Source: Corallococcus sp. EGB (GTDB lineage Bacteria > Myxococcota > Myxococcia > Myxococcales > Myxococcaceae). From it: a stretch of 64,000 nt of DNA. This document shows positions 9,925 through 43,043 of this stretch, piece after piece (the first letter of the stretch is position 1; every line of letters starts with the position of its first letter). The translations under genes were made by a program, and so were the position numbers. The notes beneath the pieces were generated by a model. That model had not been told where the DNA came from and searched no databases. It saw nothing but the letters and a program-made list of their open reading frames with translations. The stretch is from positions 5,729,356-5,793,355 of the forward strand of contig NZ_CP079946.1 of NCBI RefSeq assembly GCF_019968905.1, in the 5' to 3' direction.

Positions 9925-10689
9925 ATGTCCCGTCCGCGCCGCATGCTGGATGACCTCCCCGGCCCCTCCGGGCTGGATGACGCGCGCGGCACCGTGCCGG
10001 GCCCTGGGGATGGAGACGGGCCGCCGCCGGGCCCGCCGCGGCCCCGGCCGAAGCAGCCCACGCCCTACGTCAGCTTCACCATCATCGCGGTCGCGGTGGT
10101 GATGTTCTTCATCAGCCCGTCGCTGGGCCGGCCGCTCATCGTCGGCGGGCTGAACTATGGAATCGTGGGGCCGCTGGCGCTCTACGGGCCGTGGGTCCAG
10201 GCGGGCGAGTACTGGCGCCTGCTGGGCATGGTGTTCGAGCACGGCGGCCCGATGCACCTGCTCTTCAACATGCTCGCCGTGTACTCGCTGGGCGCGTCGC
10301 TGGAGCGCGGCATCGGCAGCGGGCGGTTCCTGGCGCTGTCGCTCGTCACGGCGCTGGGCGGCTCCGCTTTCGCGCTCTTCTTCAACTTCAACACCGTGAC
10401 GGTGGGCGCGTCCGGAATGATCCTGGGCTGGGGCGGCGCGATGCTGCCCATCCTCACCCGGCAGGGCCGCCGGGAGCACATGTTCTGGCTCGTACAGGTG
10501 GCGGTCATCAGCCTGCTGCCCGGGGTGAGCTGGTCCGGTCACCTGGGCGGCTTCCTCTTCGGCCTGCCGTGCGGCATGGCGCTGCGCCAGGGCCCGAAGT
10601 TCTACTCGCGCGCCATCCCCGTCCTGCTGTTCATCGCCGCGGTGCTGGCCGTGGTCGCCGCCCATCCCGGGCGCCTTGGAGGCCTTTGA
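9925..10689 (+). CDS. Rhomboid family intramembrane serine protease
   Basis: GASGMILG (catalytic Ser) and GHLGGFLFG (catalytic His) motifs; multiple TM helices. Confidence 0.8.
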   Translation: MSRPRRMLDDLPGPSGLDDARGTVPGPGDGDGPPPGPPRPRPKQPTPYVSFTIIAVAVVMFFISPSLGRPLIVGGLNYGIVGPLALYGPWVQAGEYWRLLGMVFEHGGPMHLLFNMLAVYSLGASLERGIGSGRFLALSLVTALGGSAFALFFNFNTVTVGASGMILGWGGAMLPILTRQGRREHMFWLVQVAVISLLPGVSWSGHLGGFLFGLPCGMALRQGPKFYSRAIPVLLFIAAVLAVVAAHPGRLGGL

Positions 10690-12531: not shown

Positions 12532-13821
12532 CTACAGACCCTCCAGATACACCACCAGCTGCGCCGAGTACCTCAGCTGCATCAACAGCTCCGCCCTGCG
12601 CGACTCATCCAGCGCGGCGAACACGTCCGCGAGCAGCGAGAGGTCCTGGTTGAGGGCGCCGATGCGCTGCACGACGTCCGCCGCCAGCTCGTCCGCGTCG
12701 ACCTCCTCCTCGACCCCTTCCGGCGCCAGCGTCTCCTCGGTGGCGAGCGCCTTCTCCAGCATGTCGCGCACCGGCGCCGTCAGCCGCCCTTCGGACTCCA
12801 GCGACTCGCGCTTCGCCGCCAGCACGTCGTGCTCCACCGGCGAGGCGTGGATGGCCTCCGCGAGGGACAGGAGGAGCGCGTCCTCGTCGGACAGCTCCTC
12901 GTGCACACGCACCTGGACCTGGTCGCGCTTGAGGAAGCGCAGCGCCGCCACGCGACGGAAGCCGCAGATGAGCTGGTAGCGCTCCTCGCCGCGCGGGCGC
13001 ACGTCCACCGGGAACAGCTGGCCCAGTCGCGCCAGGTCCGTGGCCAGCTCGGACACGTCGCCCTCGTCCCGCAGGCGGAAGGTGGTGTCCTCGTCCAGTC
13101 GCTCCAGCGGCAGCACCATCGCCGTCACCTGTCCCATCACGCGCGGCACGATGGCCTCCGCGTGGGTCTCCCCTTCCGGGGTCGCCGATCCTTCGTTGGA
13201 GCCCTGCCCCGCCACCGTCTCCGCGCCGGAGCCCGCGTCCTCCTGGCTCGCGCGGCTCGCCACGTCCCAGATGCCGGCGCTCAGGAGCGCGGCGTCCGCG
13301 CCCGACACCGGGCCCGAGTGCGGCTCCGCCAGCACGTCCTTCGCCTCGCCGCCTCCGTCGCTGCCCGTGGCGGAGGTGTCCTGGACGCCCTCTCCCGAGG
13401 ACAGCTCCACGTAGCGGCCGGGGCCTGAAGCGGCGTCCGGACCGGGCCCTTCGCCCTGCCCGGCCGCGCCAGAACCTTCTGCTCCACCCTGGAGAGCCTC
13501 GCCCGCACCGTGGACGGCCGCTTCGCCCGGCGTCGCGGGAGGCTCTTCCCCGGAACGGCTCGGGGACGCATCGCCCTCCGTGCGCGCTTCGGGCGCAGCG
13601 GTGGCCTCGGCCCCGCTCGCGGCGCCCTGACTGGCCTCGCCGGGCAGGTCCGTCCGAGCCCCACCGTGAGCGGCGCCTTCCGGCGTGACGTCTCCAACCG
13701 CGCCCTCGCCGTGCTTCGGCGCGGACGCATCCGCCACGCCCTCCTGCGGGGGCGGCGTTGCATTCTCACCCGGTGTGCCCGGCATCCCTTCCTGTCCCTC
13801 GGCCCTATGCTCGGCGTCCAT
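12532..13821 (-). CDS. padC: ParB/Srx-like nuclease-domain adaptor protein (PadC-like) with a long disordered acidic/Gly-rich N-terminus
   Basis: C-terminal ParB N-domain-like [61 protein letters not shown]; lies directly downstream of three bactofilin genes, as in the M. xanthus bacNOP-padC operon. Confidence 0.75.
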
Positions 13822-13882
13822 GGTGGCACCCCCGGTGGTTCCACCCCCGCGCCGCCGGAAACGACGGCGCGGCAGGCGGCAT

Positions 13883-14599
13883 CTAGCGGGACTTCTTCAC
13901 CACGACCTTCTTCTTCGCGCCAGCGCCCATCACGCGGGGAACAGGCGCGCCCGTACTGCTCGCCTGCTCAGTGGACGCCGGACGCGGAGGCTCCGGAGCC
14001 CGGGGCGCGGTCGCCGAGGGCGGCGGCGGGGGCGGCAGCGGCTTGGCGGACGGACGCGCCACGACGGTGGCCGGCGCCGTCGTCGCGGGCGGAGTGCGCG
14101 CGGGCGGCGGGGGCGGCGTCGGGGCGGTGCGCGGCGCGGCGGCCGGCGGCGTCGGAGGACGCGGCGGGGTGGCGCCCGGACGCACCGTGGGGCGCGTCAC
14201 CGCCTGGGGACGTGCCACGGCGGGGCGCTCGGACGGCAGGCGGCCCGGTTCCACGTCGCCCATGTCCACGCGGCCGCGGAAGCTGGCGCCGTCCACGATG
14301 ATGACGCGGGGGGCGCGGATGTCGCCCACCATGCGGCCTTCGCGGGTGAGCTCCACGCTCTCGGTGGCGTTGATGTTGCCCACCACCACGCCGCTGACGA
14401 TGGCGTTCTTCACCGCCACGTTGGCCTTCACCACGCCGGACGGCTCCACGATGAGGGTGCGGCTGAGGGTGAGCTCACCCTCGACGCGCCCGCGGACCGT
14501 GAGGTCCTCGTCACCCGTGAGCCGACCGCTGATGAGGATGGAGGGCCCCACCACGGTGTTGTCGACGGCGTTGCCTGCAAGCTCCTTCGCGGTCGCCAC
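13883..14599 (-). CDS. bacP: Bactofilin with a Pro-rich C-terminal extension and KKKVVVKK tail (BacP-like)
   Basis: Bactofilin DUF583 beta-helical repeats ([10 protein letters not shown]...[11 protein letters not shown]...); long PPPPP tail. Confidence 0.8.
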
Positions 14600-14602
14600 G
14601 GA

Positions 14603-14926
14603 TCAGCGCTCCTTCATGTCCATGTCGACGTTGCCCTTGAAGGAGGCACCGTCGGCGATGAGGATGCGCGGGGCCTTGATGTCGCCCACCACGCGGCAGT
14701 CCGTCTTGAGCTCCACCTTGTCGCTGGCGGCGATGTTGCCCGTCACGCGGCCGGCGATCTCCACGTTCTGCGTCTCGATGTCCGCCTCGACGACGCCCGA
14801 GCCCTCCACGTAGAGGCTCTCCTTGAGGGAGATCTTCCCCTTCACGGTGCCCTGGATGACCAGGTCCTCGTCACCGGAAATCTCCCCGTCGATGACGATG
14901 CTCGAGCCAATGATCGTATTCGCCAT
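14603..14926 (-). CDS. bacO: Bactofilin (BacO-like)
   Basis: Compact 107-aa bactofilin domain: IDGEISGDEDLVIQGTVKGKISLKESLYVEGSGVVEADIE... Confidence 0.8.
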   Translation of the reverse strand: MANTIIGSSIVIDGEISGDEDLVIQGTVKGKISLKESLYVEGSGVVEADIETQNVEIAGRVTGNIAASDKVELKTDCRVVGDIKAPRILIADGASFKGNVDMDMKER

Positions 14927-14989
14927 GAGTGTTGTCCGCCTTCTCGAAGCTGTGCGCCTGGGGGGCCGTGGGTCGGTCCCCGGTGGATG

Positions 14990-15331
14990 CTAGATGTCGT
15001 CCGGCAACTTCACGTCCATCTCGATGGAGCCGTTGAACACGGCGCCGTCCTCGATGATGACCCGCGGGGCCTTGATGTCGCCCGCCACCTTCGCCGAGGC
15101 ATTGATGGCCACGCGCGTGGAGGCGTCGATGTTGCCGCTCGCCTCGCCGTTGATGGTCAGTTCCTCGGCGCGGATGTCCGCCTGCACCTTGCCGGTGCCC
15201 TCGATGGTGAGGTGGTTCTTCAGGGCGATCTGCCCCTCCACGCGCCCCTCGATGACCAGGTCCCCTCCGCCCGTGAGGTTGCCCCTGATGACGATGCCCT
15301 TGCCAATGATGCCCGTTTCACCCTGTGCCAT
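14990..15331 (-). CDS. bacN: Bactofilin (BacN-like)
   Basis: 113-aa bactofilin domain: IRGNLTGGGDLVIEGRVEGQIALKNHLTIEGTGKVQADIRAEELTINGEASGNIDAS. Confidence 0.8.
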   Translation of the reverse strand: MAQGETGIIGKGIVIRGNLTGGGDLVIEGRVEGQIALKNHLTIEGTGKVQADIRAEELTINGEASGNIDASTRVAINASAKVAGDIKAPRVIIEDGAVFNGSIEMDVKLPDDI

Positions 15332-30441: not shown

Positions 30442-33426
30442 TTAAAGCTCGTGCTCATAGGCTTTTTCCAGCGCGAGATTGTGGCAGCGATGCTCGGCCG
30501 TAGGGAAGCGTCTCCGCACGTCTTCCAAGGTGGCGACCGCGTCCCGTCGGCTTCGGAACTGAACCGCCCGCTGGAACTGCATCATCAGCTGGCTGCAGCG
30601 GTGGTCCAGCTCCATTGAAATCTGGGCGATCCGCTCCCGGACGTCGTCGTACAGCTCCGGCTTCTCGTCGAGCGCTTCCAGGGTGATCCACGCGGCCCGG
30701 TAGTCCCGCCACGACTTGAACAGGTTCTCCGCGCCCACATCCTTGAGCTCGTAGAAGCGGGCCCCGGACTTCGCCAGCTCCCGGGCGGAAGCGACCAACT
30801 GGTCGGGTGGCAGCTCGGGCACCGGGATGATCTCCAGGCGCAGGTTCCAGATGCGCCAGGGGTCATGGCCGGGCGGGTTGAGGGCGTTGTCGAAGAGGAG
30901 CTGGTTGTTGGCGTTGCGGCGCAGGAGGCTGGGGGGGAGGACGTGCTCCAGTTCGCGCTCGGCGGTCTGCGCCGTGTCTGGAGGCACCCAGCCCAGGGAC
31001 ACGCCGTTGAGGGACAGGTTGACCTCGTCCCGGGCGATGTCGCTGGCCTGATAGTGCAGCACCGCCACCGCGCGGGTCGGGGACACGAAGCGGAAGTCGA
31101 AGAGCTTGTCGTCGGCGTGGACCCAGCGCACGCCCTGGCCCAGGCCGAAGGAGTCCGGTACCGGATCCATGCCCAGCGTGAAGGGCTCGCGTCCCGGGAG
31201 GCGGATGGCGGTCGGCATCGCGAGCGCCGCGAGCAGCGTCACCCCCGCCAGCACCACCACCGCCGACACCGACACGAAGGCGATGCGCTTGGGCAGTGAC
31301 TGGCGCTGCCAGAAGAGCTGGAACTGGCCAGCGAGCGACTTGCCCAACTGACGCCGCTTGCGCGCCTTGTCCGCGGCGGACGAGGGCTCGACCTTCGCGA
31401 CGACCGTCACCGGGCCGTTGGGCACGAGCTGGATGGACGGGTCCTCCCGGTCGGGCGGGAGCGGCTGGGTGCCTTCGCCCTCCCCGTCCGCGGAGGGCGT
31501 GGGTGCCAGCAAGGGGGCCGCGCCCGGCGGCGGGCCGGGGTCCAGCGCCGGAGGAGGCACGGCGTGCTGCCGGCGGCCCACCTGCGTCACCGGCTCCGGC
31601 GGAGGCGGCGGGACGGGAGCGAGCCGGGCCTGCGGTGCCTCCGGAACCGCCGCGGCGGCGATGGGCGGTTCCTGGCCCGCGAAGGTCCCCGAGGCACGGG
31701 TCTCCTCGGGAGCCGCATCGACGTCATGGTCCTGGCCGACGAAGGTCGCGGGCTCGCGGGAGTCCGACGGGGGTGCGGCCGGTGCCGCGCTCGCGACACG
31801 CACCGGCGGGGACACGAGCGGGCTGACCGGGGTGATGGGCCGGAGGTCGAGGACCGTGCGCTCCTCGGGCTCCTCCATCGTCGGAGGGGGCAGCGCAAAC
31901 GCGTCGTCCCGTGGCGGCGGCGCGTCCACCGGAGGTGGCGCTTCCGGGGTCGCCTGAATCGCCATCAGCGTGCGCTCTTCAGGCTCCTCCAGGGCCGGCG
32001 CGGAGAGCGCGGACACGGCCTCGTGCGATGGCACTCCCCCCGGAGGCGGCGCTGCCGGGGTCGCCTGAATCGCCATCAGCGTGCGCTCCTCCGGCTCGTC
32101 CATCACCGCGATGGGCAGCTCGGGGGCCGGCACGGAGACGGGCCCAGGCGAATCCACGGTGGGAATCGCCATCAGCGTGCGTTCCTCCGGTTCCTCCGGC
32201 ACCACGGGCGCCAGGTCATTGGAGGGCGGCGTGACGGGAGGGCGCGCCGGGGGTGGCGGAGCCATGAGCCCCGGCGGCGTCATCAACGGAAGGCCGGACC
32301 CGGAGGAGGCCCCAACGCCTGGTGCCGTGGACGCACGCGAGGCGCCGCGATCCGGCGAAGGCCGGTTCGGTCCCGGCGTGCCAACACCGGGCGGGCTCGA
32401 GACACCATTCCGCTTCGCGGAAACAGGCTCCGTCGAGGCAGGAGCGCCCACCGCCGGAAGCTCCAGCGCCGTGATGTGGGCGGGCTCCACGGCAAGCGTG
32501 GCCGGCGCGTCCAACACGGGAGGGCGGCCGGCCCCCGAGCCATTGATCGCTGGCAGTCCCGGCCCGGAGGCCCTGACAGGGGTGGATGCTCCCGGAGCCT
32601 TGTTCACCGGCGAGGCGCTGCCCACGACAGGTCCCGCGGGCGCCTTGGCCGGCGAACCCGCGGGAGGAGCGGCAGCCCCCAACACCGGTGGCCCCGCGGG
32701 AGTTCTGGACGGCGCGCTCGCGGAAGGCCCCGAGGACGCCAACACCGGAGGCGAGCCGGGGACCTTGCCCGCGGCAGACGCTCCGGACGCGGAGCCCCCC
32801 AGCACCGGAGGGGGCCTGACCGGCGCGGTCCCCAACGCGGGAGCCCGCAGCACCGGAGGACTCCTGCCCGGAGTGGCAGCCCCCAGGACCGGGGGCACCG
32901 GTGGAGCCTTGACTGGCGTGGGGCCCCCCACCGCGGGCAGATCTGGAGCAGAGGGGCGCTTCGGTGGAGTCACCGCCGCCGGCATCACGGGCGTGGGCAC
33001 TGCCTTCCCTGAGGGCACGGTGGCGGCGGGACGCGGCGGAGAAGCGGGCCTCGCCATGGCTGGCATCGACTGCTGGTAGCTCGTGGGCGCCGCTTCGATC
33101 TCCGCGAGCGACGCCTGCTCCACGCCCTGCGGCGACACCTTCGCGTGCGGCGGCGCGAGCACCCGCCGGATGGGCCGGGTGACGTCGTCGTCCCCGTCCG
33201 GCGGCATCCACACGAAGGTGAACTCCACCGGCCCCACGGTGATGCGGTCCCCGTCGCGCAGCTGCTTCTCACCGCTCAGCAGCTGGCCGTTGAGGTGCGT
33301 GCCGTTCGCGCTGCCTACGTCCTCGGCGAAATAGCGCCCATCCCTCGCGGTGATGCGCGCATGACGACGGGAGACACCGTGGTCATGCAGCACCAGGTCG
33401 TTCTCCGAGGTCCGGCCGATCTTCAC
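30442..33426 (-). CDS. Large FHA-domain membrane protein (994 aa): N-terminal FHA, about 600 aa Pro/Ala-rich disordered region with four EEPEERTLMAI-type repeats, one TM helix, and a roughly 270 aa periplasmic C-terminal domain
   Basis: FHA motif IGRTSENDLVLHDHGVSRRHARI...SANGTHLNG; TM helix IAFVSVSAVVVLAGVTLLAALA. Confidence 0.75.
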   Translation of the reverse strand: MKIGRTSENDLVLHDHGVSRRHARITARDGRYFAEDVGSANGTHLNGQLLSGEKQLRDGDRITVGPVEFTFVWMPPDGDDDVTRPIRRVLAPPHAKVSPQGVEQASLAEIEAAPTSYQQSMPAMARPASPPRPAATVPSGKAVPTPVMPAAVTPPKRPSAPDLPAVGGPTPVKAPPVPPVLGAATPGRSPPVLRAPALGTAPVRPPPVLGGSASGASAAGKVPGSPPVLASSGPSASAPSRTPAGPPVLGAAAPPAGSPAKAPAGPVVGSASPVNKAPGASTPVRASGPGLPAINGSGAGRPPVLDAPATLAVEPAHITALELPAVGAPASTEPVSAKRNGVSSPPGVGTPGPNRPSPDRGASRASTAPGVGASSGSGLPLMTPPGLMAPPPPARPPVTPPSNDLAPVVPEEPEERTLMAIPTVDSPGPVSVPAPELPIAVMDEPEERTLMAIQATPAAPPPGGVPSHEAVSALSAPALEEPEERTLMAIQATPEAPPPVDAPPPRDDAFALPPPTMEEPEERTVLDLRPITPVSPLVSPPVRVASAAPAAPPSDSREPATFVGQDHDVDAAPEETRASGTFAGQEPPIAAAAVPEAPQARLAPVPPPPPEPVTQVGRRQHAVPPPALDPGPPPGAAPLLAPTPSADGEGEGTQPLPPDREDPSIQLVPNGPVTVVAKVEPSSAADKARKRRQLGKSLAGQFQLFWQRQSLPKRIAFVSVSAVVVLAGVTLLAALAMPTAIRLPGREPFTLGMDPVPDSFGLGQGVRWVHADDKLFDFRFVSPTRAVAVLHYQASDIARDEVNLSLNGVSLGWVPPDTAQTAERELEHVLPPSLLRRNANNQLLFDNALNPPGHDPWRIWNLRLEIIPVPELPPDQLVASARELAKSGARFYELKDVGAENLFKSWRDYRAAWITLEALDEKPELYDDVRERIAQISMELDHRCSQLMMQFQRAVQFRSRRDAVATLEDVRRRFPTAEHRCHNLALEKAYEHEL
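31880..32215 (-). repeat. Imperfect tandem repeats of about 100 bp inside the large FHA gene, encoding four (D/E)EPEERT(L/V)(M/L)AI peptide repeats
   Basis: DNA motif gaatcgccatcagcgtgcgctc(c/t)tc(a/c)ggctc(c/g)tcc recurs three times with 95-105 bp spacing; approximate coordinates. Confidence 0.6.
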
Positions 33427-33499
33427 TTCGGCCTGCTCGAAGGCGAGCTCCCGTCCGACCTGGAGCCCCTGGGTGATGGTGAGCAGGATGGGCAGAGGA

Positions 33500-34387
33500 C
33501 TAGCCCCCGACGTTGCCGAACATGAACTGGAACACGATGGGCCCGAAGAGCACCATGAACACCGTCGGGAAGATGCAGGCGATCAGCGGGAACAGCATCT
33601 TCACCGGGGCCTCGCCGGCCAGCTTCTCCGCGCGCTGCGTGCGGTCGATGCGCATCTGCGTGGACTGGATGCGCAGCACCTTGCCCAGGCTCGTGCCCAT
33701 CTTGTCCGCCTGGATCAGCGCCGTGACGAACGTCGTCAGCGACGGCAGGTCCACGCGCATGATCATGCTCTTCAAGGCCTCTTCGCGCGTCTTGCCCATC
33801 TTGAGCTGCTTGAGCACCAGCTGCAGCTCCTCGCGCAGCGGACCCTGGCGGCCCTTCTCCACCACCTTCGCCAGCGCGCCCGTGAAGTCCATGCCCGCTT
33901 CCACCGACAGCGTCAGCAGGTCCAGGTTGTACGGGAGCGCGCGGCTGATGGCCAGGTGACGGCGCTTCACCTGATCGTTCAACCAGATGAGCGGATAGAA
34001 CAGGCCCAGGAGCATCACCAGCAGCGACCACGCCAGGTTCGCGCCAATGCCGTTGACGACGAACAGGCCGGCGAGCAACGCGAAGAACGCGCTCACCTCC
34101 TGCAACGCCATGATGTCCTCGGGCTTGTACTGCGACGGCTCGCCCGCCTTGATCAGCTTGCGGCGCGTCTTGGACTCGTAGCTCGGCCACATGAAGCGCC
34201 GGTTCATCGCGCCCAGCTTGCGGACGGCGACGGAGCCCGCGCCCTTCATGCCGCCAGCGGACTCGTCCCGCACCTCCGTGAGGAAGCGCTCCAGGACGTT
34301 GGTGTACAGGCCGATGCCCAGGAACGCCACCGCGCCCGCGGTCAGCAGTACCGAGCCGCCCATCAGCAGAGATGTCAGGACTTCCAC
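33500..34387 (-). CDS. Tad/type II secretion system F-family inner-membrane platform protein (TadC-like)
   Basis: T2SSF-domain polytopic membrane protein; pairs with the following TadB-like gene. Confidence 0.8.
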   Translation of the reverse strand: MEVLTSLLMGGSVLLTAGAVAFLGIGLYTNVLERFLTEVRDESAGGMKGAGSVAVRKLGAMNRRFMWPSYESKTRRKLIKAGEPSQYKPEDIMALQEVSAFFALLAGLFVVNGIGANLAWSLLVMLLGLFYPLIWLNDQVKRRHLAISRALPYNLDLLTLSVEAGMDFTGALAKVVEKGRQGPLREELQLVLKQLKMGKTREEALKSMIMRVDLPSLTTFVTALIQADKMGTSLGKVLRIQSTQMRIDRTQRAEKLAGEAPVKMLFPLIACIFPTVFMVLFGPIVFQFMFGNVGG

Positions 34388-34400
34388 GGTACGCCTCGCT

Positions 34401-35246
34401 TCAGATGTCGATGTTGACGATGCGGCGGATGATGAGGATGCCCATGATCTCCATGATGGCGATCAGGGTCACCAGGATGTAGCCGAAGATGTGGTTCATC
34501 ATCGGCTCCATCAGGTCCGGACGCATGTAGTTGAGCACCATGCCCAGCACCGCCGGCATGGCCGCGACGATCCACCCCTGAAGCTTGCCCTGGGACGTCA
34601 GCGCGTCGATCTTGCCTTCCAGACGGAAGCGCTCGCGGATCACCGTGGAGATGGTCTCGAACATCTCCGCCATGTTGCCGCCCAGCTGGCGCGCGATGTT
34701 GGTGGACACCACCACCAGCTCCAGGTCGTCGCTGCCCACGCGGCGGCCCATGTTGATGAGCGCCTCCTCCAGCGGCACGCCCAGCTTCACTTCCTTCACG
34801 AAGAGGCCGAACTCCTGGGACAGGGGCGGCATCGCCTCGCGCGCCACGTGCTCGATGGCCTGCGGGAACGTGAGGCCGGCCTTGAACGCGTTGGCCATGG
34901 CCTGCAGCGCGTCCACCAGCTGCACGTTGAACTTCTTGATGCGGCGCTTGCGGTAGTGCTTCACGAGCAGCATCGGCAGGAAGAAGCCGAAGATGGTCGC
35001 CAGCACCGCCAGGATGGGGTTGAAGACGATGTAGCTGAGGATGCCCAGGAGGCACATGCAGGCGATGTTGAGGATCAACATCTGCCGCGCGTCGATGAAG
35101 AGGAACATGTCGCTCAAGTCGTTCATCGACTTGGCGACGTACCGCTCCTGGTACTGCTCATACGCCTTCGACAGGACGCTGAAGATCACCAGGCTGAAGA
35201 AGAAGACCGAGCCGGTGACGAGAAGGAGGACGATACCTGCGAGCAT
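34401..35246 (-). CDS. Tad/type II secretion system F-family inner-membrane platform protein (TadB-like)
   Basis: T2SSF-domain; ...AFKAGLTFPQAIEHVAREAMPPLSQEF... is typical of TadB. Confidence 0.8.
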   Translation of the reverse strand: MLAGIVLLLVTGSVFFFSLVIFSVLSKAYEQYQERYVAKSMNDLSDMFLFIDARQMLILNIACMCLLGILSYIVFNPILAVLATIFGFFLPMLLVKHYRKRRIKKFNVQLVDALQAMANAFKAGLTFPQAIEHVAREAMPPLSQEFGLFVKEVKLGVPLEEALINMGRRVGSDDLELVVVSTNIARQLGGNMAEMFETISTVIRERFRLEGKIDALTSQGKLQGWIVAAMPAVLGMVLNYMRPDLMEPMMNHIFGYILVTLIAIMEIMGILIIRRIVNIDI

Positions 35247-35322: not shown

Positions 35323-36138
35323 CTACGGAGTGCCGGCCGAGGCCTTCTCGCCGCCGCCGCCCCGGATGACCGTGATGATCTCCCGGCGCTTCTGCTCCAG
35401 CACGCGGGTGCGCTCACCGGAGAGCAGCGTGCTGATGGTGGCGCGGCCACGCTCCTCGATGAGGTCCACGTCGTCCTCGTTGCGCAGGGACAGCGTCAGG
35501 TTGCCGAGCTCCGCCGCCAGCACGAGGATCTCCGCCTCTTCCGGCAGCACCATCAGCGAGACGTTGCTGTACTCGCGCTGGTTCTCCGGGATGAGGTTGA
35601 TGTTCGTGGTACCGGTGATCTTGCCCGTGGCCACGACGATGATGTTCTGCAGCAGCGTCACCGCGACGCTCTCGTCCGTCTGCGGATCGCGGAACGTGCC
35701 GATGATGTCCACGTGGTCGTTCGGGCGGATCCACCCGCCCACCGCGGTGGTCTGCTTCGCCTCGATGGTGATGGCGCGCGCCTTCTTCTGCACCTTCGTG
35801 GACAGGCGCTCGGCGGCCTTCGTGGTCTCGAACTGGCTCCAGAGGATGGGGTCGCCGGCCTGCAGCGCCACCAGCACCTTCTGGTTCACGATGTAGTTGG
35901 CGGAGTCCGGCTTCACCACCGACGAGGTGACGAACTGCTCCGGCACGGAGCGCTGGGAGATCATCTCATACGTGATGACCGAGCCCTCGGGCATGTCCTG
36001 CCCCGCCACCACCACGGGAACCAGGTTCCACCCGCGGCGCACATCGGCTTCCTTCTTCTTGATGGCCGAGTAGGCCACGATGCCCGCGAGCAAACCGAGC
36101 ACCAGTGCGACGACGAGTGGGGTCTTACCCTTCAACAT
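35323..36138 (-). CDS. cpaB: Flp pilus assembly protein CpaB/RcpC family (periplasmic, N-terminal TM anchor, SAF domain)
   Basis: N-terminal TM helix LVVALVLGLLAGIVAY, then the CpaB N- and C-terminal domains. Confidence 0.75.
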   Translation of the reverse strand: MLKGKTPLVVALVLGLLAGIVAYSAIKKKEADVRRGWNLVPVVVAGQDMPEGSVITYEMISQRSVPEQFVTSSVVKPDSANYIVNQKVLVALQAGDPILWSQFETTKAAERLSTKVQKKARAITIEAKQTTAVGGWIRPNDHVDIIGTFRDPQTDESVAVTLLQNIIVVATGKITGTTNINLIPENQREYSNVSLMVLPEEAEILVLAAELGNLTLSLRNEDDVDLIEERGRATISTLLSGERTRVLEQKRREIITVIRGGGGEKASAGTP

Positions 36139-36198
36139 GGTTCGAGGTCCTCCAGAACGGTGGGGCGCCGTCGTGGCGGCAGGACTGCTTGGGACGAG

Positions 36199-36228
36199 GG
36201 GGCGATGCCAGGGCGCGAACGGGGCCTA
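36199..36228 (-). promoter_or_regulatory. Putative sigma-70-type promoter (TTGACA-N18-TAACAT) for the cpaB-tadB-tadC-FHA... array
   Basis: Minus strand reads ggttTTGACAcccgcagcggtgcatggcTAACATtagg, about 60 nt upstream of the cpaB ATG, within a 232 bp intergenic gap; approximate coordinates. Confidence 0.4.
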
Positions 36229-36370
36229 ATGTTAGCCATGCACCGCTGCGGGTGTCAAAACCACCTCTCGTGACAAAGCGGAATCCCGGGACCTCCGGCA
36301 CTCGCGGGGCCTGCCCACCCGGCTGGGAGGACGGCGCGACACACGAGCGGATCCGCGACCCTGGCGTCCC

Positions 36371-36655
36371 TCAGGGGAACGGCAGGTTCAGCACGAAGTA
36401 GAACGAGTCGTAATAAATCTGGTACGCCTCGAGGAACAGGTCGATGACGTTGGACTGCTTGTCTTCGTTCCAGCGGATCTTCACCGTGGCGCCGATGACG
36501 AGCCCGACGATCAACACCCAGTTGATCATCGAGTACTCCACCATGGCCTGGCCACGGCGGGCCCGGCGCGGCGGCGACTTCCGGGGGCTGTTCACGGGGG
36601 GAGCGTGCACGATGCCCCCATTATCCAGCACCGGGGCCCTGGACGCATCGGTCAT
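36371..36655 (-). CDS. Candidate Flp/Fap-family type IVb prepilin: 37-aa basic leader, G/QAMVEY processing motif, hydrophobic helix. Could alternatively start at the internal Met as a 57-aa product
   Basis: ...RRARRGQAMVEYSMINWVLIVGLVIGATV... matches the Flp G-XXXX-EY motif followed by a hydrophobic helix; GC3 is clearly lower than in neighbouring genes (att, tat, aat, gaa codons); sits between the anti-sigma gene and cpaB. Confidence 0.55.
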   Translation of the reverse strand: MTDASRAPVLDNGGIVHAPPVNSPRKSPPRRARRGQAMVEYSMINWVLIVGLVIGATVKIRWNEDKQSNVIDLFLEAYQIYYDSFYFVLNLPFP

Positions 36656-36673
36656 GTGGACTGCCGCCCTCCC

Positions 36674-38074
36674 CTACTGCGCGGGCTGGGCGGGGGCCGC
36701 CTTGGACGGAGCCGCGGGGGGCGTGGCCTGACGCAGGCGGCGCTGGGCCAGCTGGGCCGCGCTGGAGTCCGGGGCCTCGGAGATGATCTGCCCGCAGACG
36801 GCGGCGGCCTCCCGGGTCCGGCCCTGGACGGACTCGGACTCACAGAGGCGGGAGAGCAGCGCCAACCGCTCGCTGCCGTTGGCTCCAGCCGCGAGCGCGG
36901 CGCGCAGCAGCCGGGCCTCGCTGGCACGGTCGCCCCGCTCCGCGGCGGCCTGGGCCTGGGCGGACAGATCGCGCGCCGTCATCGCCTTGTCGGAGGCGGC
37001 CTTCCCCACGGGCACGGGCTTCGCGGTCGACGCCCGGGGGGACGCGGGCTCCGGGGGCGCGGCCCCGCCAATGGAGCCCGGGGTGCCGGGGGCCATGGTC
37101 ACGGACTGGGCCTGGGGCGCGGCGGCCGCAGGAGGCGGCGGCGACGCGGAAGCGCTCGCGCCCCCCTCGTCCGCGTCGTCCGCGGCGAGCCCCCGGCCAT
37201 AGGCCTTCGCGCCCAACCGCAGCGAGTCGTCCTTCGCGGCCAGCGCGGTGTCCGCGCCTGCCGCCGTCGCACGCCGCGGCGCGGGGACGACCTTTCCGGC
37301 CAGGTAGCCGTCGGACTTCTCTTCCTTCAGCGATGAAGCCATCTCCGCTGGCAGAGCCCCCGCGGCCGGTTCGAGCGGCGCGAACTCGTTGTCCGCGTCG
37401 CGGACGGCCTTGGCCACCTTCTTCTTCGGGGCGTCGTCGTACGAGCGGCGCCGCTCCAGGAGCGCGCCGCCGCTGCCCGCGTTCATCCAGTCCGACGGAC
37501 GGGCCGCGCCCTTGAGCTCCGCCTCCGCCTGATTCCGGTCGAACTTCTCATCCATCGGCGCGGGTGAGACGGCCGCCAGCGCATCCGCGGCGCCCTCGGA
37601 GGAAGCCTCCTTCACGGCAGTGGGGGCAGGCGCCATCGTCGCGGTCGGCTGGCGCTTGTCCCACTCCTCCGCCTTCGCCGCGACCGGAGCGGCCTTCTGC
37701 GACAGGTTCGGCTCCAGCTGGAGGTTCTGGCTGATGGTCAGCGAGAGGAGGCCGAAGGTGCTCACCATGGCCACGCCCACCGCAGGCAGCAGCCAGCGGC
37801 GCCAGCGCGAGGGCTTCGGCTCGGGCCCCGCGGCGGCGCGGCGCGCGGCCTGCTCCGCGTACGCGAGCAGCGACTCCAGGCCCGCGTCCGGCGCGGGTTC
37901 GGCCGACAGCTGCGCCATGGTGGTGCGCACGCCGCGGATGTCCGCCAGCGCCTTCGTGCAGCGCGCACAGCCCTGGACGTGCTGCTCCAGCACCTGGGCT
38001 TCCGACGCGGGCAGCTCGCCGTAGGCGAAGTCGAGGAGCCGGTCCTCGTGCGCATGGACATTCTGGGCACTCAT
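36674..38074 (-). CDS. Anti-sigma factor: N-terminal zinc-binding ZAS-like domain, TM helix, Ala/Pro-rich periplasmic region with C-terminal TPR
   Basis: HVQGCARCTKAL (HxxxCxxC) anti-sigma motif; TM helix WLLPAVGVAMVSTFGLLSLTI; start overlaps the ECF sigma stop. Confidence 0.7.
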   Translation of the reverse strand: MSAQNVHAHEDRLLDFAYGELPASEAQVLEQHVQGCARCTKALADIRGVRTTMAQLSAEPAPDAGLESLLAYAEQAARRAAAGPEPKPSRWRRWLLPAVGVAMVSTFGLLSLTISQNLQLEPNLSQKAAPVAAKAEEWDKRQPTATMAPAPTAVKEASSEGAADALAAVSPAPMDEKFDRNQAEAELKGAARPSDWMNAGSGGALLERRRSYDDAPKKKVAKAVRDADNEFAPLEPAAGALPAEMASSLKEEKSDGYLAGKVVPAPRRATAAGADTALAAKDDSLRLGAKAYGRGLAADDADEGGASASASPPPPAAAAPQAQSVTMAPGTPGSIGGAAPPEPASPRASTAKPVPVGKAASDKAMTARDLSAQAQAAAERGDRASEARLLRAALAAGANGSERLALLSRLCESESVQGRTREAAAVCGQIISEAPDSSAAQLAQRRLRQATPPAAPSKAAPAQPAQ

Positions 38075-38718
38075 CCCGCCACCGTCCTTCCATCCTCCGA
38101 CAGGTCGCCGTCCACGCCCAGCTCTCCCAGGCGGCGGCGCAGGCCCTCCAGCGCGTAGCGCATCCGGCTCTTCACCGTGTTCTCGGACACGCCCGTCACC
38201 TCGGCGATCTCCTTGAACGGGATGCCGCTGTACTCGCGCAGCACGAACACCTCGCGCTGTTCCTCCGGAAGGGCCCCGAGGGCCCGCTCCAACAGGGGCC
38301 GGAGCCGGGCGTTGTGCGCCCCGCGCTCCGGGCTGGCCCCGGCATCCGGCAGCCCCTCGCCCAGCGGACGTCCCTCGTCGCCGTCGGCACCCGCCGAGGG
38401 GGCTTCCAGGGACGTCGCCTGGCGGTAGCTCTCTTTGCGGGTGCTGTCCACGCAGAGGTTCCTCGCGATGGTGTACAGCCAGGTCGTGAACCGGGCCTTG
38501 GGCTCGTATTCCCGGGCGCTGCGGACGACCTTGAGCCAGGTCTCCTGCAGCACGTCCTCCGCCCGCGCCCGGTGCCCCACGAAGCGCAGGATGAAGTTGA
38601 ACACCGGCGCGCGGTGCTTGCGTACCAACGCTTCGAACGCGCGCGCGTCTCCCGCCTGGAAGGCGAGCATCAGCTGCTCGTCTGAGGTTTCGGGTGCCAA
38701 ACTTCCCCCAGTGCCCAT
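38071..38718 (-). CDS. ECF (sigma-70 family, RpoE-like) sigma factor. Start at MGTGGSLAPETSDEQLMLAFQAGD
   Basis: Region 2 (VFNFILRFVGHRARAEDVLQETWLKV) and region 4 (FKEIAEVTGVSENTVKSRMRYALEGLR) motifs. Confidence 0.8.
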   Translation of the reverse strand: MGTGGSLAPETSDEQLMLAFQAGDARAFEALVRKHRAPVFNFILRFVGHRARAEDVLQETWLKVVRSAREYEPKARFTTWLYTIARNLCVDSTRKESYRQATSLEAPSAGADGDEGRPLGEGLPDAGASPERGAHNARLRPLLERALGALPEEQREVFVLREYSGIPFKEIAEVTGVSENTVKSRMRYALEGLRRRLGELGVDGDLSEDGRTVAG

Positions 38719-41232: not shown

Positions 41233-41236
<4 letters not shown>

Positions 41237-42225
41237 TTCTGGGCCAGCTCCTCCAGGAACTCCGCCTCCTGGATGAGCCCCTTGCGGATGAGCAGGCGGA
41301 TGAGGCTCGCGACCATGCGCGCGGGCTTCACCTTCTCCGTGTCCAGGCTGGCCTCCTCGCCGCGCGAGATGCGGTCGATGTCGTCCAGCACCGCCAGGTC
41401 CTCCTCGGAGAAGTCCGGCTTGGGCGTGAGGGCCACGGACGGCTTCACGCCCTGCGCGGCGCCGCCGAAGAGCACCACCGGCACGCGCGGCTTGCTCGGG
41501 TCCTCCGGCTCCGAGGGAGGCGGGGGTGGCGGCGGACGGGCCGCGGCGGGCGGGGGCGGAGGACGCGGGGCCTTGGGACGGGGCGTGGAGCCCAGGATGT
41601 CCTCGAGCACCTCCGCGCCGTCCGTGGAGGAGTCATGGGGCGGCGGCGGAGGCAGGTCCCAGTCCAGCGGCGGCGCGGGCGGGCGCGGCGGCGCGGGCGG
41701 GCGCGCGGCGGCCGGCGGGGGCGACGGCAGGATGTCCGGCGAATCGTCCTCGTCCATGTCCATGGGTTCAGCCTCCACGATGTCCAGCGGCTCGCCCCGG
41801 CCGCGCGAGAGCGCCTGCTCCAGGTCGTCCGACGCGGCGACGAACACCTTGAGCGGCTTGCGCAGCTGGAAGCGCAGCTCGTCCACCAGCATCAGGTTGC
41901 CCGGGTCCTCCACCGCGACGTGGATCTTCTCGCTGCGGCCGTCCTGCTCCGCGGCGAAGAGGAGCACCCGGTGCTCCGTCTGGAAGTCCATGGACACCAG
42001 CGACGACACCCCGTGCGGGATGTACTCGGGGAGCTTCACGAACGGCAGCTCGTGCTGCGCCGCCAGCGCCCGCGCGATGTCCTGGCCCGTGCACAGGCCC
42101 ATGGACACCAGCACCTCCCCCAGCTTGCGTCCCTGCCCGCGACGTCCGGAGGCCAGGGCCTGCTTCACCTGCTCGTCCGTCACCACTCCGGCCTGGACGA
42201 GGAGCTCACCAATCTTCTTGCGCAT
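41233..42225 (-). CDS. Standalone T2SSE_N/MshEN-domain protein (N-terminal domain of GspE/PilB ATPases, no ATPase domain) with a Pro-rich C-terminal half
   Basis: Two MshEN-type 24-residue motifs: [24 protein letters not shown] and [24 protein letters not shown] ([RK]LGxxLLxxGLLxxxxLxxALxxQ). Confidence 0.7.
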
Positions 42226-42234
42226 GGCCGGGGG

Positions 42235-42984
42235 CTACCGCTTGACCTTGGCGAGGTATTCCTCGCGAGAGAAAACGCCCTTCTCGATGAGCAGCTCCAC
42301 CATGGCCTTCAGCGCCGCGACCTCCTTGCGCTGGACCTCCTCCACGCTCTTGAGCAGCTCCGCGGGGCTTCCGGACGCCGCGCGGGGCGCCTCCTGCGGA
42401 GGCGCCTGACGGGGCGGCGGCGCGGCGGCGGGCTTGGGGGACATGGCCACCGCGGCGGCCGGGTCCAGGTCCTTGAGGTTCTTCACGACGGTGCGGCCCT
42501 GCGCGTCCACCACCTTGAAGTTGGTGTCCGCGTCCTCCAGCTCCGCCGTCTCCTCGTAGAGGCGCGCGAACGCCCGCGCCACGGAGGTGCGCCCCGCCAC
42601 GTTGGCCACGATGCGGCACTTGGACAGGGCCCGCAGCTCGTCCAGCACGCGCACGTTGAGCGGGTCCGACATGGCGACCACCAGCGTCTTGCCGTCGTCG
42701 CGCAGCTGCAGCGGCACGACAGAGAAGTCGCGGGCCGTCTGCGCCGGAATCTTGGCCTTCACGTGCGGCGGCACCATCTGCACGGAGTCCAGGTTCACCG
42801 CCGGCATGCCGAGCTGCTTCGACAGGGCGCGCACGAGGATGTCCTCGGAGACGAGGTTCATCCGGACGAGGATCTCGCCCAGCTTCCCGCCCCACTTGGC
42901 CTGCTCGGCGAGCGCCGCCTTGAGCTGGCTCTCCTGCAGGACGTTTGCCTTGATCAGCAGTTCTCCAAGCTTGATCTGTGCCAT
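42235..42984 (-). CDS. Standalone T2SSE_N/MshEN-domain protein. Start at MAQIKLGELLIKANVL
   Basis: Motifs KLGELLIKANVLQESQLKAALAEQ and KLGEILVRMNLVSEDILVRALSKQ (G10 replaced by N); no ATPase domain. Confidence 0.7.
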   Translation of the reverse strand: MAQIKLGELLIKANVLQESQLKAALAEQAKWGGKLGEILVRMNLVSEDILVRALSKQLGMPAVNLDSVQMVPPHVKAKIPAQTARDFSVVPLQLRDDGKTLVVAMSDPLNVRVLDELRALSKCRIVANVAGRTSVARAFARLYEETAELEDADTNFKVVDAQGRTVVKNLKDLDPAAAVAMSPKPAAAPPPRQAPPQEAPRAASGSPAELLKSVEEVQRKEVAALKAMVELLIEKGVFSREEYLAKVKR

Positions 42985-43043
42985 GTCGTGCGCGCCATAG
43001 TACCCGGTTTGAGCCGGGGCGCTTCCTTTCAACGCCTGGAAGC

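What the first reader, a model, noticed from the sequence alone, without database searches (positions are those of the whole stretch)
36371..36655. Small low-GC ORF with a Flp-pilin G-XXXX-EY motif between the anti-sigma gene and cpaB: candidate missing pilin of the Tad-like system
The 94-aa ORF has a basic leader (…PRKSPPRRARRGQA), then MVEYSMINWVLIVGLVIGATV. That places E and Y at +5 and +6 after a Gly, as in Flp/Fap prepilins, followed by a hydrophobic helix and a roughly 35-residue tail. Its codon usage differs from its neighbours (att, tat, aat, gaa codons), as often seen for pilin genes. If the internal Met is the true start, the product is a 57-aa MVEY… peptide. Genes this small are often missed by annotation. 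A pilin for this apparatus would matter for its mechanism, but no prepilin peptidase gene is present in this window.
Basis: partly seen in the sequence, partly recalled or inferred. Interest (0 to 1): 0.7.

Follow-up and report, generated by a model that had tools for sequence, protein, structure and literature searches.

The report
KilK adapter pilin gene, already known
The small ORF is a real gene, but it is the Corallococcus copy of kilK, a small Flp-type minor pilin of the myxobacterial Kil (Tad-like) prey-killing pilus that was described in Myxococcus xanthus in 2021 and 2025, so it is not a missing pilin.

Summary
The ORF at 36371..36655 (-) exists, and its G/XXXXEY motif followed by a hydrophobic helix occurs only once in all six frames of the window. 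It has 253 homologues, all in Myxococcota.

Its M. xanthus counterpart is a 75-aa protein, 72% identical, in the same gene neighbourhood. That protein is MXAN_4655 (KilK): the published kilK deletion and expression primers map exactly onto it. KilK was first called the major Kil pilin (2021). It was then shown genetically to be a minor "adapter" Flp pilin that couples tip complexes to the KilP filament (2025). KilP, the real major pilin, is encoded elsewhere.

It is not new, and it is not the "missing" pilin.

Three details are wrong:
- Codon usage is normal (GC3 0.95).
- The internal Met cannot be the start.
- The first 20 codons of the 94-aa ORF overlie a conserved non-coding element and show no coding signature. 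The likely product is 74-79 aa.

Side observations:
- Corallococcus loci lack the Tip4 gene block that flanks kilK in Myxococcus.
- kilB has its own conserved promoter-like site.
- A bipartite upstream element is conserved.

The parts
36371..36655 (-).
   Evidence: GC by codon position is 0.57/0.40/0.91.
36371..36595 (-). Most likely kilK coding sequence: GTG start at 36595, 74 aa plus stop. An alternative GTG at 36610 would give 79 aa.
   Evidence: tblastn aligns residue 1 of M. xanthus KilK (GTG start) to 36595. Homologues are typically 74-77 aa. GC3 is 0.95 here against 0.80 in codons 1-20. Variable sites per codon position are 13/6/22 in the mature part against 8/8/10 in the extension.
36551..36595 (-). 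Basic leader peptide (M)NSPRKSPPRRARRG, ending in the invariant Arg34-Gly35
   Evidence: Alignments A1 and A3: R34 and G35 are invariant.
36533..36553 (-). Prepilin processing motif G/QAMVEY: Gly at -1, Glu at +5, Tyr at +6
   Evidence: G, Q, E and Y are invariant in 88 homologues. The register matches mature Caulobacter PilA, ATAIEY... (PDB 8u1k). The motif is unique in the window.
36482..36550 (-). Hydrophobic N-terminal helix of the mature pilin (QAMVEYSMINWVLIVGLVIGATV)
   Evidence: The AlphaFold2 model has a helix over residues 11-37 of the 74-aa form, with pLDDT about 90 at residues 21-30.
36374..36451 (-). Conserved aromatic C-terminal part NVIDLFLEAYQIYYDSFYFVLNLPFP, the signature of the KilK family
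   Evidence: F74, Y78, Y81, Y82, D83, S84, V88, L89, N90, P92, F93 and P94 are invariant. The motif persists in distant relatives. The model has a helix over residues 50-69.
36618..36661 (-). Conserved bipartite non-coding element GTCCAC-ATGACCGATGC-N18-GGATAATGG. It contains the ATG of the 94-aa ORF.
   Evidence: There is one copy per locus in 22 loci. It lies upstream of kilM4 in Myxococcus and Pyxidicoccus, and upstream of kilK in Corallococcus. In M. xanthus the equivalent triplet is TTG, in a frame closed by TAA. L008 has TGA at codon 5.
36229..36258 (-). Sigma-70-like promoter site TTGACA-N18-TAACAT upstream of kilB
   Evidence: Found by the pattern scan. It is invariant across Corallococcus, Myxococcus, Pyxidicoccus and MAG loci while the flanks diverge.
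35323..36138 (-). kilB (CpaB/RcpC homologue)
   Evidence: Pfam RcpC and SAF; TIGR03177 at 6.5e-57. 89% identical to MXAN_4652.
34401..35246 (-). kilG (TadB/T2SSF platform protein)
   Evidence: Pfam T2SSF. 95% identical to MXAN_4651.
33500..34387 (-). kilH (TadC/T2SSF platform protein)
   Evidence: Pfam T2SSF. 82% identical to MXAN_4650.
36674..38074 (-). zf-HC2 anti-sigma factor (MXAN_4661 homologue). Its stop codon lies 18 nt before the ATG at 36655.
   Evidence: Pfam zf-HC2. 43% identical to MXAN_4661.
38071..38700 (-). ECF-type sigma factor gene
   Evidence: Pfam Sigma70_r2 and r4_2. 88% identical to the M. xanthus neighbour of MXAN_4661.

Best explanation
The ORF is kilK, the Corallococcus ortholog of M. 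xanthus MXAN_4655. It encodes a small Flp-type (type IVc) prepilin of the Kil Tad-like predation pilus.

Shown here:
- It is a conserved coding gene.
- It is orthologous and syntenic to kilK.
- It carries the class-III/Flp processing motif and a hydrophobic N-terminal helix.

Inferred from the M. xanthus work and from general type IV pilin biology:
- A prepilin of 74-79 aa inserts in the inner membrane.
- A prepilin peptidase encoded elsewhere (KilA/CpaA-type or PilD) removes its basic leader after Gly35.
- The 59-aa mature protein is a hydrophobic helix with Glu5, a short loop, and an invariant aromatic C-terminal helix.
- It sits at the junction between a TadE/F/G-like tip complex and the KilP filament.
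- There it acts as an adapter that primes polymerisation by the KilF ATPase, the KilG/H platform, KilB and the KilC secretin. It is a low-abundance minor pilin, not the shaft subunit.

The ATG at 36655 is probably not the start. Translation most likely begins at the GTG at 36595 or the GTG at 36610.
For: - Coding: GC3 is 0.95. Variable sites per codon position in the mature part are 13/6/22, a clear three-base periodicity. There are 253 homologues with invariant RGQ.M.EYS and YYDS..VLN.PFP.
- Orthology: M. xanthus P0039 (75 aa) is 72% identical over its full length. It lies in the order sigma, zf-HC2, TadE, Tad, TadE, two unknowns, P0039, two unknowns, CpaB, T2SSF, T2SSF, FHA, FHA, xseA. The same flanks are in the window at 80-95% identity.
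- P0039 is KilK. The 2021 deletion primers join L001 10000 to 10229, removing exactly 10001-10228. The 2025 expression primers encode MNHPKTL... and ...LNLPFP*.
- Function in M. xanthus (PMC8460266, PMC12075869). A kilK deletion gives a partial predation defect. It abolishes the function of Tip1, Tip2 and Tip4. A kilK kilO double deletion abolishes KilP polymerisation. AlphaFold models place KilK between the tip and the KilP shaft. Transcription is low.
- Flp-like anatomy: the G/XXXXEY register is the same as in Caulobacter PilA. The model is helix, loop, helix with pLDDT 71. Distant relatives give weak hits to TadE, Class_IIIsignal and Flp_Fap.
- kilK stays next to kilB in every locus examined, including the 22 of 60 that lack the adjacent Tip4 block. 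That fits a core adapter used by several tips.
- Tip complexes of Corallococcus coralloides encoded elsewhere were modelled by Herrou et al. (COCOR_ files).
Against: - The protein and its 28 close homologues give no hit to Pfam Flp_Fap, TadE or any NCBIfam pilin model.
- The narrow family profile does not match Caulobacter PilA significantly (probability 1.6%).
- Cleavage, membrane insertion and incorporation into a pilus have not been shown biochemically for KilK, even in M. xanthus. The adapter role rests on genetics and AlphaFold models.
- Nothing was tested in Corallococcus.
- In this genome the Tip4 genes that flank kilK in Myxococcus are absent, so its partners are only presumed to be encoded elsewhere.
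Confidence: 0.82

Rival explanations
1. It is the major, filament-forming pilin of the Tad-like pilus in this organism.
For: It has Flp-like size and motif and lies next to cpaB-tadB-tadC. KilK was originally annotated as the major pilin (PMC8460266).
Against: In M. xanthus the shaft is KilP (mxan_5121). KilP was labelled and seen polymerising, and its deletion abolishes predation, whereas a kilK deletion is only partial (PMC12075869). KilP has different termini (MKA...GQNNAY). kilK is transcribed at very low levels. Its exposed C-terminal half is almost invariant across genera, unlike typical major pilins.
Confidence: 0.06
2. It is a small bitopic membrane protein with a pilin-like N-terminus that is not assembled into the pilus. 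It could be an assembly or regulatory factor linked to the adjacent ECF sigma/anti-sigma pair or to KilB.
For: There is no significant Flp_Fap hit. The C-terminal aromatic motif is extremely conserved, which suggests a fixed protein partner. In Corallococcus the gene directly follows the anti-sigma gene. Incorporation of KilK into pili has not been shown directly.
Against: The invariant Gly(-1), Glu(+5) and Tyr(+6) are the hallmark of substrates of prepilin peptidases. The kilK kilO double mutant lacks pili and phenocopies a mutant without tips. KilK is specific for certain tips. In Myxococcus the gene sits within the minor-pilin block, not next to the anti-sigma gene.
Confidence: 0.08
3. The gene model of the first reader and of RefSeq is right: translation starts at the ATG at 36655 and gives a 94-aa prepilin with a 35-residue leader.
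For: The ATG is conserved in all 13 Corallococcus sequences. A GGAGG lies 11 nt upstream in the window and its closest relatives. The frame is open in 12 of 13. The two indels in this stretch are multiples of three.
Against: The ATG lies inside a DNA element that is non-coding in Myxococcus, where it reads TTG and its frame ends in TAA within box 2. Spacing between the two boxes differs by 1 nt between genera, so the boxes are conserved as DNA and not as codons. L008 has TGA at codon 5. Variable sites are 8/8/10 per codon position and GC3 is 0.80. The usual family length is 74-77 aa.
Confidence: 0.15
4. The ORF is not a gene, and the region is only the 5' UTR or promoter of cpaB/kilB.
For: None beyond its position upstream of cpaB.
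Against: There is strong protein-level conservation with coding periodicity. The conserved kilB promoter-like site lies downstream of the ORF's stop codon, at 36229..36258. There is no Rfam match. The M. xanthus ortholog has a complementable deletion phenotype.
Confidence: 0.01

Closest known systems
KilK (MXAN_4655), Flp-type minor 'adapter' pilin of the Myxococcus xanthus Kil system (Seef et al. 2021, PMC8460266; Herrou et al. 2025, PMC12075869)
   Same: It is 72% identical over the whole 75 aa. It has the same leader type, G/QAM(V/L)EY motif and invariant C-terminus ...YQIYYDSFYFVLNLPFP. It lies in the same chromosomal neighbourhood: ECF sigma/anti-sigma upstream, and kilB-kilG-kilH-FHA-FHA-xseA downstream.
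   Different: In the window and in all Corallococcus loci the seven genes that surround kilK in Myxococcus are absent (MXAN_4653, 4654, 4656, 4657 and the Tip4 genes 4658-4660). As a result kilK directly follows the anti-sigma gene and the upstream element that precedes kilM4 in Myxococcus. The start-codon context differs: M. xanthus has GAGGA 7 nt before its GTG, while the window has no Shine-Dalgarno sequence before the homologous GTG.
KilO (mxan_1150), second Flp-type adapter pilin of M. xanthus, specific for Tip3
   Same: According to the paper, it is a small, fully helical Flp-like protein with a leader and cleavage motif, and it has the same proposed role.
   Different: It is encoded in the tip3 cluster.
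KilP (mxan_5121), major pilin of the Kil pilus
   Same: It is also a small Flp-like prepilin with G/XXXXE and a long leader (97 aa).
   Different: It lies at a different locus, has different termini (MKA...GQNNAY), forms the filament shaft and is essential for predation.
Canonical Flp/Fap pilins (Pfam PF04964), e.g. Caulobacter PilA (PDB 8u1k) and Aggregatibacter Flp1
   Same: The prepilin is 50-80 aa. Gly(-1), Glu(+5) and Tyr(+6) are in the same register, followed by a hydrophobic helix. The fold is helix-loop-helix. The gene is encoded beside cpaB, tadB and tadC.
   Different: No PF04964 hit. The leader is Arg/Pro-rich. The C-terminal half is aromatic and invariant rather than variable. The proposed role is tip adapter rather than shaft subunit.
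TadE/TadF pseudopilins (Pfam PF07811)
   Same: They have a similar N-terminal processing motif (KilM4 has SGQAAVE). Six distant KilK-family members give weak TadE hits.
   Different: TadE/F proteins are 150-400 aa with a globular beta domain. KilK has only about 36 residues after the helix.

Membership tests
KilK (MXAN_4655) orthologous group | Full-length sequence similarity to M. xanthus KilK | tested here: met
   tblastn gives 72% identity over residues 1-75, E 4e-36, and this is the only hit in the window. The M. xanthus homologue P0039 scores E 7e-30 in the database search.
KilK (MXAN_4655) orthologous group | The M. xanthus homologue really is the gene published as kilK | tested here: met
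   The 2021 deletion primers flank exactly L001 10001-10228. The 2025 primers encode MNHPKTL... and ...LNLPFP*.
KilK (MXAN_4655) orthologous group | Conserved synteny with kil cluster II | tested here: met
   The sigma, anti-sigma, kilB, kilG, kilH, two FHA genes and xseA are in the same order and orientation at 43-95% identity. The Tip4 block is missing.
KilK (MXAN_4655) orthologous group | Adapter function: needed for tip-dependent pilus priming | not testable with these tools
   This is known only from M. xanthus genetics and AlphaFold models (PMC12075869).
Flp/Fap type IVc pilins (PF04964) | Significant match to the Flp_Fap profile | tested here: not met
   There is no hit at E<=1 for the protein, and none at E<=10 for 28 family members. 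Three of 42 distant relatives hit weakly, best E 0.0034.
Flp/Fap type IVc pilins (PF04964) | G/XXXXEY processing motif followed by about 20 hydrophobic residues | tested here: met
   Gly35, Glu40 and Tyr41 are invariant in 88 homologues. hhalign places them in register with Caulobacter PilA (probability 59%, E 9e-5).
Flp/Fap type IVc pilins (PF04964) | Small size (prepilin 50-80 aa) and an all-helical hairpin fold | tested here: inconclusive
   The size criterion is met: the family is usually 74-77 aa and the mature form is 59 aa. The model shows H11-37 and H50-69 with a low-confidence hairpin between them, at mean pLDDT 71. Fold searches gave no specific match.
Flp/Fap type IVc pilins (PF04964) | Encoded with Tad machinery genes | tested here: met
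   cpaB lies 232 bp downstream, followed by two T2SSF genes.
Flp/Fap type IVc pilins (PF04964) | Cleavage by a CpaA/TadV-type prepilin peptidase and assembly into a fibre | not testable with these tools
   No peptidase gene was found among the 48 window ORFs scanned. In M. xanthus, kilA lies in cluster I.
KilP major pilin | Orthology to mxan_5121 (97 aa, ...GQNNAY) | tested here: not met
   The C-terminus of the ORF is ...NLPFP. Its M. xanthus ortholog is MXAN_4655, not 5121.
TadE/TadF pseudopilins (PF07811) | TadE profile match and a globular C-terminal domain | tested here: not met
   There is no TadE hit, and only 36 residues follow the helix.

The most novel reading that the evidence does not exclude
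In Corallococcus the whole Tip4 block has been lost from kil cluster II. kilK has been placed directly behind the conserved bipartite element (GTCCA..TGACCGATGC-N18/19-GGATAATGG) that precedes kilM4 in Myxococcus.

This element may be the control site of the minor-pilin operon. It could be a promoter giving a leaderless or near-leaderless mRNA, since its GATAAT lies 6 nt before the kilM4 ATG. It could be governed by the adjacent, so far unstudied, ECF sigma/anti-sigma pair. If so, envelope or prey-contact signalling would directly set the supply of the adapter pilin that primes Kil pilus assembly.
Probability: 0.15. Interest if true: 0.45.

Novelty: already known. Interest (0 to 1): 0.15.

Why it matters
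For the question asked, it matters little. The pilin repertoire of this apparatus has been worked out in M. xanthus, and this ORF is one of its named components.

Three practical points follow:
- Corallococcus homologues in public records are labelled 'hypothetical protein'. Their start codon probably lies inside a regulatory element, so the annotation could be corrected to kilK with a 74-83 aa product.
- kilK is the only gene of the minor-pilin block that always stays with kilB/G/H. This independently supports its published role as a general adapter.
- The conserved upstream element and the neighbouring ECF sigma/anti-sigma pair offer a testable handle on how Kil pilin expression is controlled. 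The two papers I read do not address this.

Tried and rejected
- Pfam, NCBIfam and PHROGs scans of the 94-, 74- and 57-aa versions gave no pilin family.
- A Pfam scan of 28 close homologues at E<=10 gave no Flp_Fap or TadE hit.
- A profile search of PDB sequences returned only a chance beta-xylosidase hit.
- The afdb50 library was not available.
- hhalign of the narrow family alignment against Caulobacter PilA gave the right register but probability 1.6%. Only the wider alignment reached 59%.
- Rfam at E<=1 gave nothing over 35900..36900.
- A repeat search gave nothing meaningful.
- Exact-sequence look-ups of the 94-aa form, the 74-aa form and CpaB found no record, so this exact genome is not in the collection. 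The nearest is Corallococcus sp. RDP092CA at 94%.
- I considered KilP identity and rejected it on termini and locus.
- I first thought the 2021 primers implied a different C-terminus (...GKQ*). Mapping showed that sequence lies downstream of the stop codon.
- I tried to read the bipartite element as a standard sigma-70, sigma-54 or ECF promoter by eye. None fits: the TTGACC-to-GATAAT spacer is 25 nt. No similar motif lies upstream of the sigma gene.
- The plus-strand ORF 36444..36731 is a shadow frame with GC1 below GC2.

Full report
**The observation.**
The minus strand of 36371..36655 carries an ATG..TGA ORF of 94 codons. It reads MTDASRAPVLDNGGIVHAPPVNSPRKSPPRRARRGQAMVEYSMINWVLIVGLVIGATVKIRWNEDKQSNVIDLFLEAYQIYYDSFYFVLNLPFP.

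I scanned all six frames of the 64-kb window for G-X4-E[YF] followed by 17 uncharged, mostly hydrophobic residues. Only this site matched, and 30 triplet-shuffled windows gave none.

The ORF lies between a zf-HC2 anti-sigma gene with its ECF sigma gene upstream, and a CpaB gene followed by two T2SSF (TadB/TadC-type) genes and two FHA-domain genes downstream.

**It is a real coding gene.**
G+C by codon position is 0.57/0.40/0.91, the pattern of genuine genes in this 71% G+C window. For codons 21-94, GC3 is 0.95. The claim that its codon usage differs from its neighbours is therefore not supported. The low overall G+C comes from an amino-acid composition rich in Tyr, Phe, Asn, Ile and Asp.

The protein database holds 253 homologues, all from Myxococcota where a source names the organism: Corallococcus, Myxococcus, Pyxidicoccus, Hyalangium, Archangium and Cystobacter. 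Most are 74-77 aa. Arg-Gly-Gln, Met, Glu-Tyr-Ser and the C-terminal YYDS..VLN.PFP are invariant.

Among 13 Corallococcus sequences, the mature part varies at 13, 6 and 22 sites in codon positions 1, 2 and 3. That is a clear coding signature.

**What it is.**
The M. xanthus homologue P0039 (75 aa) lies in a locus with this gene order: sigma, zf-HC2, TadE, Tad, TadE, 257 aa, 269 aa, P0039, 248 aa, 244 aa, CpaB, T2SSF, T2SSF, FHA, FHA, xseA. This matches the published kil cluster II, MXAN_4661 down to MXAN_4648, and P0039 falls on MXAN_4655, which is KilK (supplementary table of PMC8460266).

I checked this assignment directly in two ways:
- The 2021 kilK deletion primers join L001 position 10000 to 10229. 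They remove exactly the GTG..TGA ORF at 10001-10228.
- The 2025 expression primers encode MNHPKTL... and ...LNLPFP-stop.

M. xanthus KilK aligns to the window ORF over its whole length at 72% identity, starting at window position 36595. The flanking genes are 80-95% identical, except the anti-sigma factor at 43%. The ORF is therefore the kilK ortholog of a Corallococcus species. The nearest genome is Corallococcus sp. RDP092CA, at 94%.

**What is known about KilK.**
Seef et al. 2021 (PMC8460266) named it the putative major Flp pilin of the Kil Tad-like apparatus and found only a partial predation defect on deletion.

Herrou et al. 2025 (PMC12075869) reported the following:
- The filament is made of KilP (mxan_5121, 97 aa), encoded elsewhere.
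- KilK and KilO are Flp-type minor pilins needed for the function of specific tip complexes: KilK for Tip1, Tip2 and Tip4, and KilO for Tip3.
- A kilK kilO double mutant makes no pilus.
- kilK is transcribed at a low level.
- AlphaFold models place KilK between the tip helix bundle and the KilP shaft.

KilP ends ...GQNNAY, so it is not this ORF. It is neither new nor the missing shaft pilin.

**How Flp-like is it?**
By sequence profile the match is poor. There is no Flp_Fap, TadE or NCBIfam pilin hit for the protein or for 28 close homologues. The narrow family profile does not match Caulobacter PilA.

An exhaustive profile search found 120 cluster representatives at E<=1e-3. The 37 distant ones I read share GQ(A/S)(M/L)xEY(A/S) and a C-terminal Y..Y.DS.Y.(V/L)L.LP.P motif.

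With that wider alignment, hhalign matches Caulobacter PilA over the leader, motif and helix in the exact register, with probability 59% and E 9e-5. The mature PilA sequence was verified against PDB 8u1k. Some distant members give weak hits to TadE (6), Class_IIIsignal (5) and Flp_Fap (3).

The AlphaFold2 model has mean pLDDT 71. It shows a long N-terminal helix, a low-confidence hairpin and a second helix. Structure searches were uninformative.

I conclude that this is a divergent Flp-like family with its own invariant C-terminal signature. That signature fits a fixed interface with tip and shaft pilins.

**The gene model.**
The internal Met cannot be the start, because the invariant Arg34-Gly35-Gln36 precede it.

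The ATG at 36655 is also doubtful. It lies inside a bipartite DNA element, GTCCA..(A/T)TGACCGATGC-N18/19-GGATA(A/C)TGG, that occurs once per locus in 22 loci. In Myxococcus and Pyxidicoccus the element sits 4-13 nt upstream of the kilM4 (MXAN_4660) start. It is non-coding there: the triplet is TTG, the frame is closed by TAA inside box 2, and the spacer is one base longer. In Corallococcus the same element precedes kilK.

Several further observations argue against translation of codons 1-20:
- Corallococcus sp. CA053C has TGA at codon 5 of the extension.
- Variable sites in codons 1-20 are 8, 8 and 10 by codon position, so there is no periodicity.
- GC3 of codons 1-20 is 0.80.

The likely start is the GTG at 36595, homologous to the M. 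xanthus start, giving 74 aa. The GTG at 36610, 7 nt after box 2, would give 79 aa. Most other Corallococcus loci have an ATG 4 nt after box 2, at the position of the kilM4 start, but a 9-bp deletion removed it in this window. The mature protein is the same in every case.

**Locus evolution.**
A tblastn search of the whole window finds no homologue of MXAN_4653, 4654, 4656, 4657 or the Tip4 genes 4658-4660.

Among 60 loci with both flanks, 38 carry the full block and 22 carry none of the tip genes. Of those 22, 19 have only kilK, including every Corallococcus locus. There are no intermediates.

None of the named entries among the 120 best KilM4 homologues is from Corallococcus. Herrou et al. 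did model Corallococcus coralloides tip complexes from other loci (COCOR_ files). So kilK stays with kilB/G/H when the local tip genes are gone, as expected for a general adapter.

**Transcription signals.**
A TTGACA-N18-TAACAT site at 36258..36229 lies between the kilK stop codon and kilB. It is invariant from Corallococcus to Myxococcus, Pyxidicoccus and MAGs while its flanks diverge. So kilB has its own promoter-like site, and the ORF is not its UTR. No Rfam family or terminator was found.

**Verdict.**
The finding is a correct piece of sequence reading that rediscovers a known, experimentally studied gene. Novelty is 'already known' and interest is low. The residual novelty lies in the side observations: the conserved upstream element, its possible link to the unstudied ECF sigma/anti-sigma pair, and the loss of Tip4 in Corallococcus.

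Noticed in passing
window 36229..36258 (-): A sigma-70-like site TTGACA-N18-TAACAT lies about 90 nt upstream of kilB. The core GAGGT.G.TTTGACAC...GG.TAACAT is invariant across Corallococcus, Myxococcus, Pyxidicoccus and MAG loci while the flanks diverge. kilB-kilG-kilH probably have their own promoter.
   Followed up: partly
window 36618..36661 (-); L001 4079..4121: A bipartite conserved element GTCCA..(A/T)TGACCGATGC-N18/19-GGATA(A/C)TGG occurs once per locus in 22 loci. It always precedes the first pilin gene after the anti-sigma gene: kilM4 in Myxococcus and kilK in Corallococcus. Its GATAAT lies 6 nt before the kilM4 ATG, which would fit a leaderless mRNA. It does not fit a standard sigma-70, sigma-54 or ECF consensus, and its function is unknown.
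   Followed up: partly
window 36139..36673, compared with L001 4029..12025: The seven genes MXAN_4653, 4654, 4656, 4657 and Tip4 (kilL4, kilN4, kilM4) are absent from the whole 64-kb window and from all Corallococcus loci. Across 60 loci the block is either complete (38) or entirely absent (22). None of the named entries among the top 120 KilM4 homologues is from Corallococcus.
   Followed up: partly
L004-L014 (Corallococcus loci); P0001, P0003, P0005: Public records annotate the Corallococcus homologues as 97-100 aa 'hypothetical protein', starting at the ATG inside box 1 of the conserved element. L008 (Corallococcus sp. CA053C) has TGA at codon 5 of that extension. The start is probably mis-called.
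   Followed up: yes
window 30442..33495 (-): The FHA-domain protein homologous to MXAN_4649 is about 1000 aa here, against 484 aa in M. xanthus. The extra roughly 500 residues lie between the FHA domain and the conserved C-terminal part. The N-terminal 23 codons that align with M. xanthus have no ATG, GTG or TTG at the aligned start.
   Followed up: no
window 36674..38074 (-): The zf-HC2 anti-sigma factor is only 43% identical to M. xanthus MXAN_4661, whereas the sigma factor (88%) and the kil genes (82-95%) are well conserved. It is Ala/Pro-rich and evolving fast.
   Followed up: no
window 41233..43032 (-): Two adjacent genes encode MshEN-domain proteins (330 and 265 aa) without an obvious ATPase domain. 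They lie upstream of the ABC transporter genes, next to a DUF4292 gene and an ExbB/ExbD pair.
   Followed up: no
window 12532..15331 (-): Three tandem bactofilin genes are followed by a gene encoding a ParB_N-domain protein. From memory, this resembles the M. xanthus bacNOP-padC arrangement.
   Followed up: no
window 36444..36731 (+): A 95-codon antisense ORF overlaps kilK with GC3 0.91 but GC1 below GC2. It is a shadow frame typical of high-G+C DNA, not a gene.
   Followed up: partly
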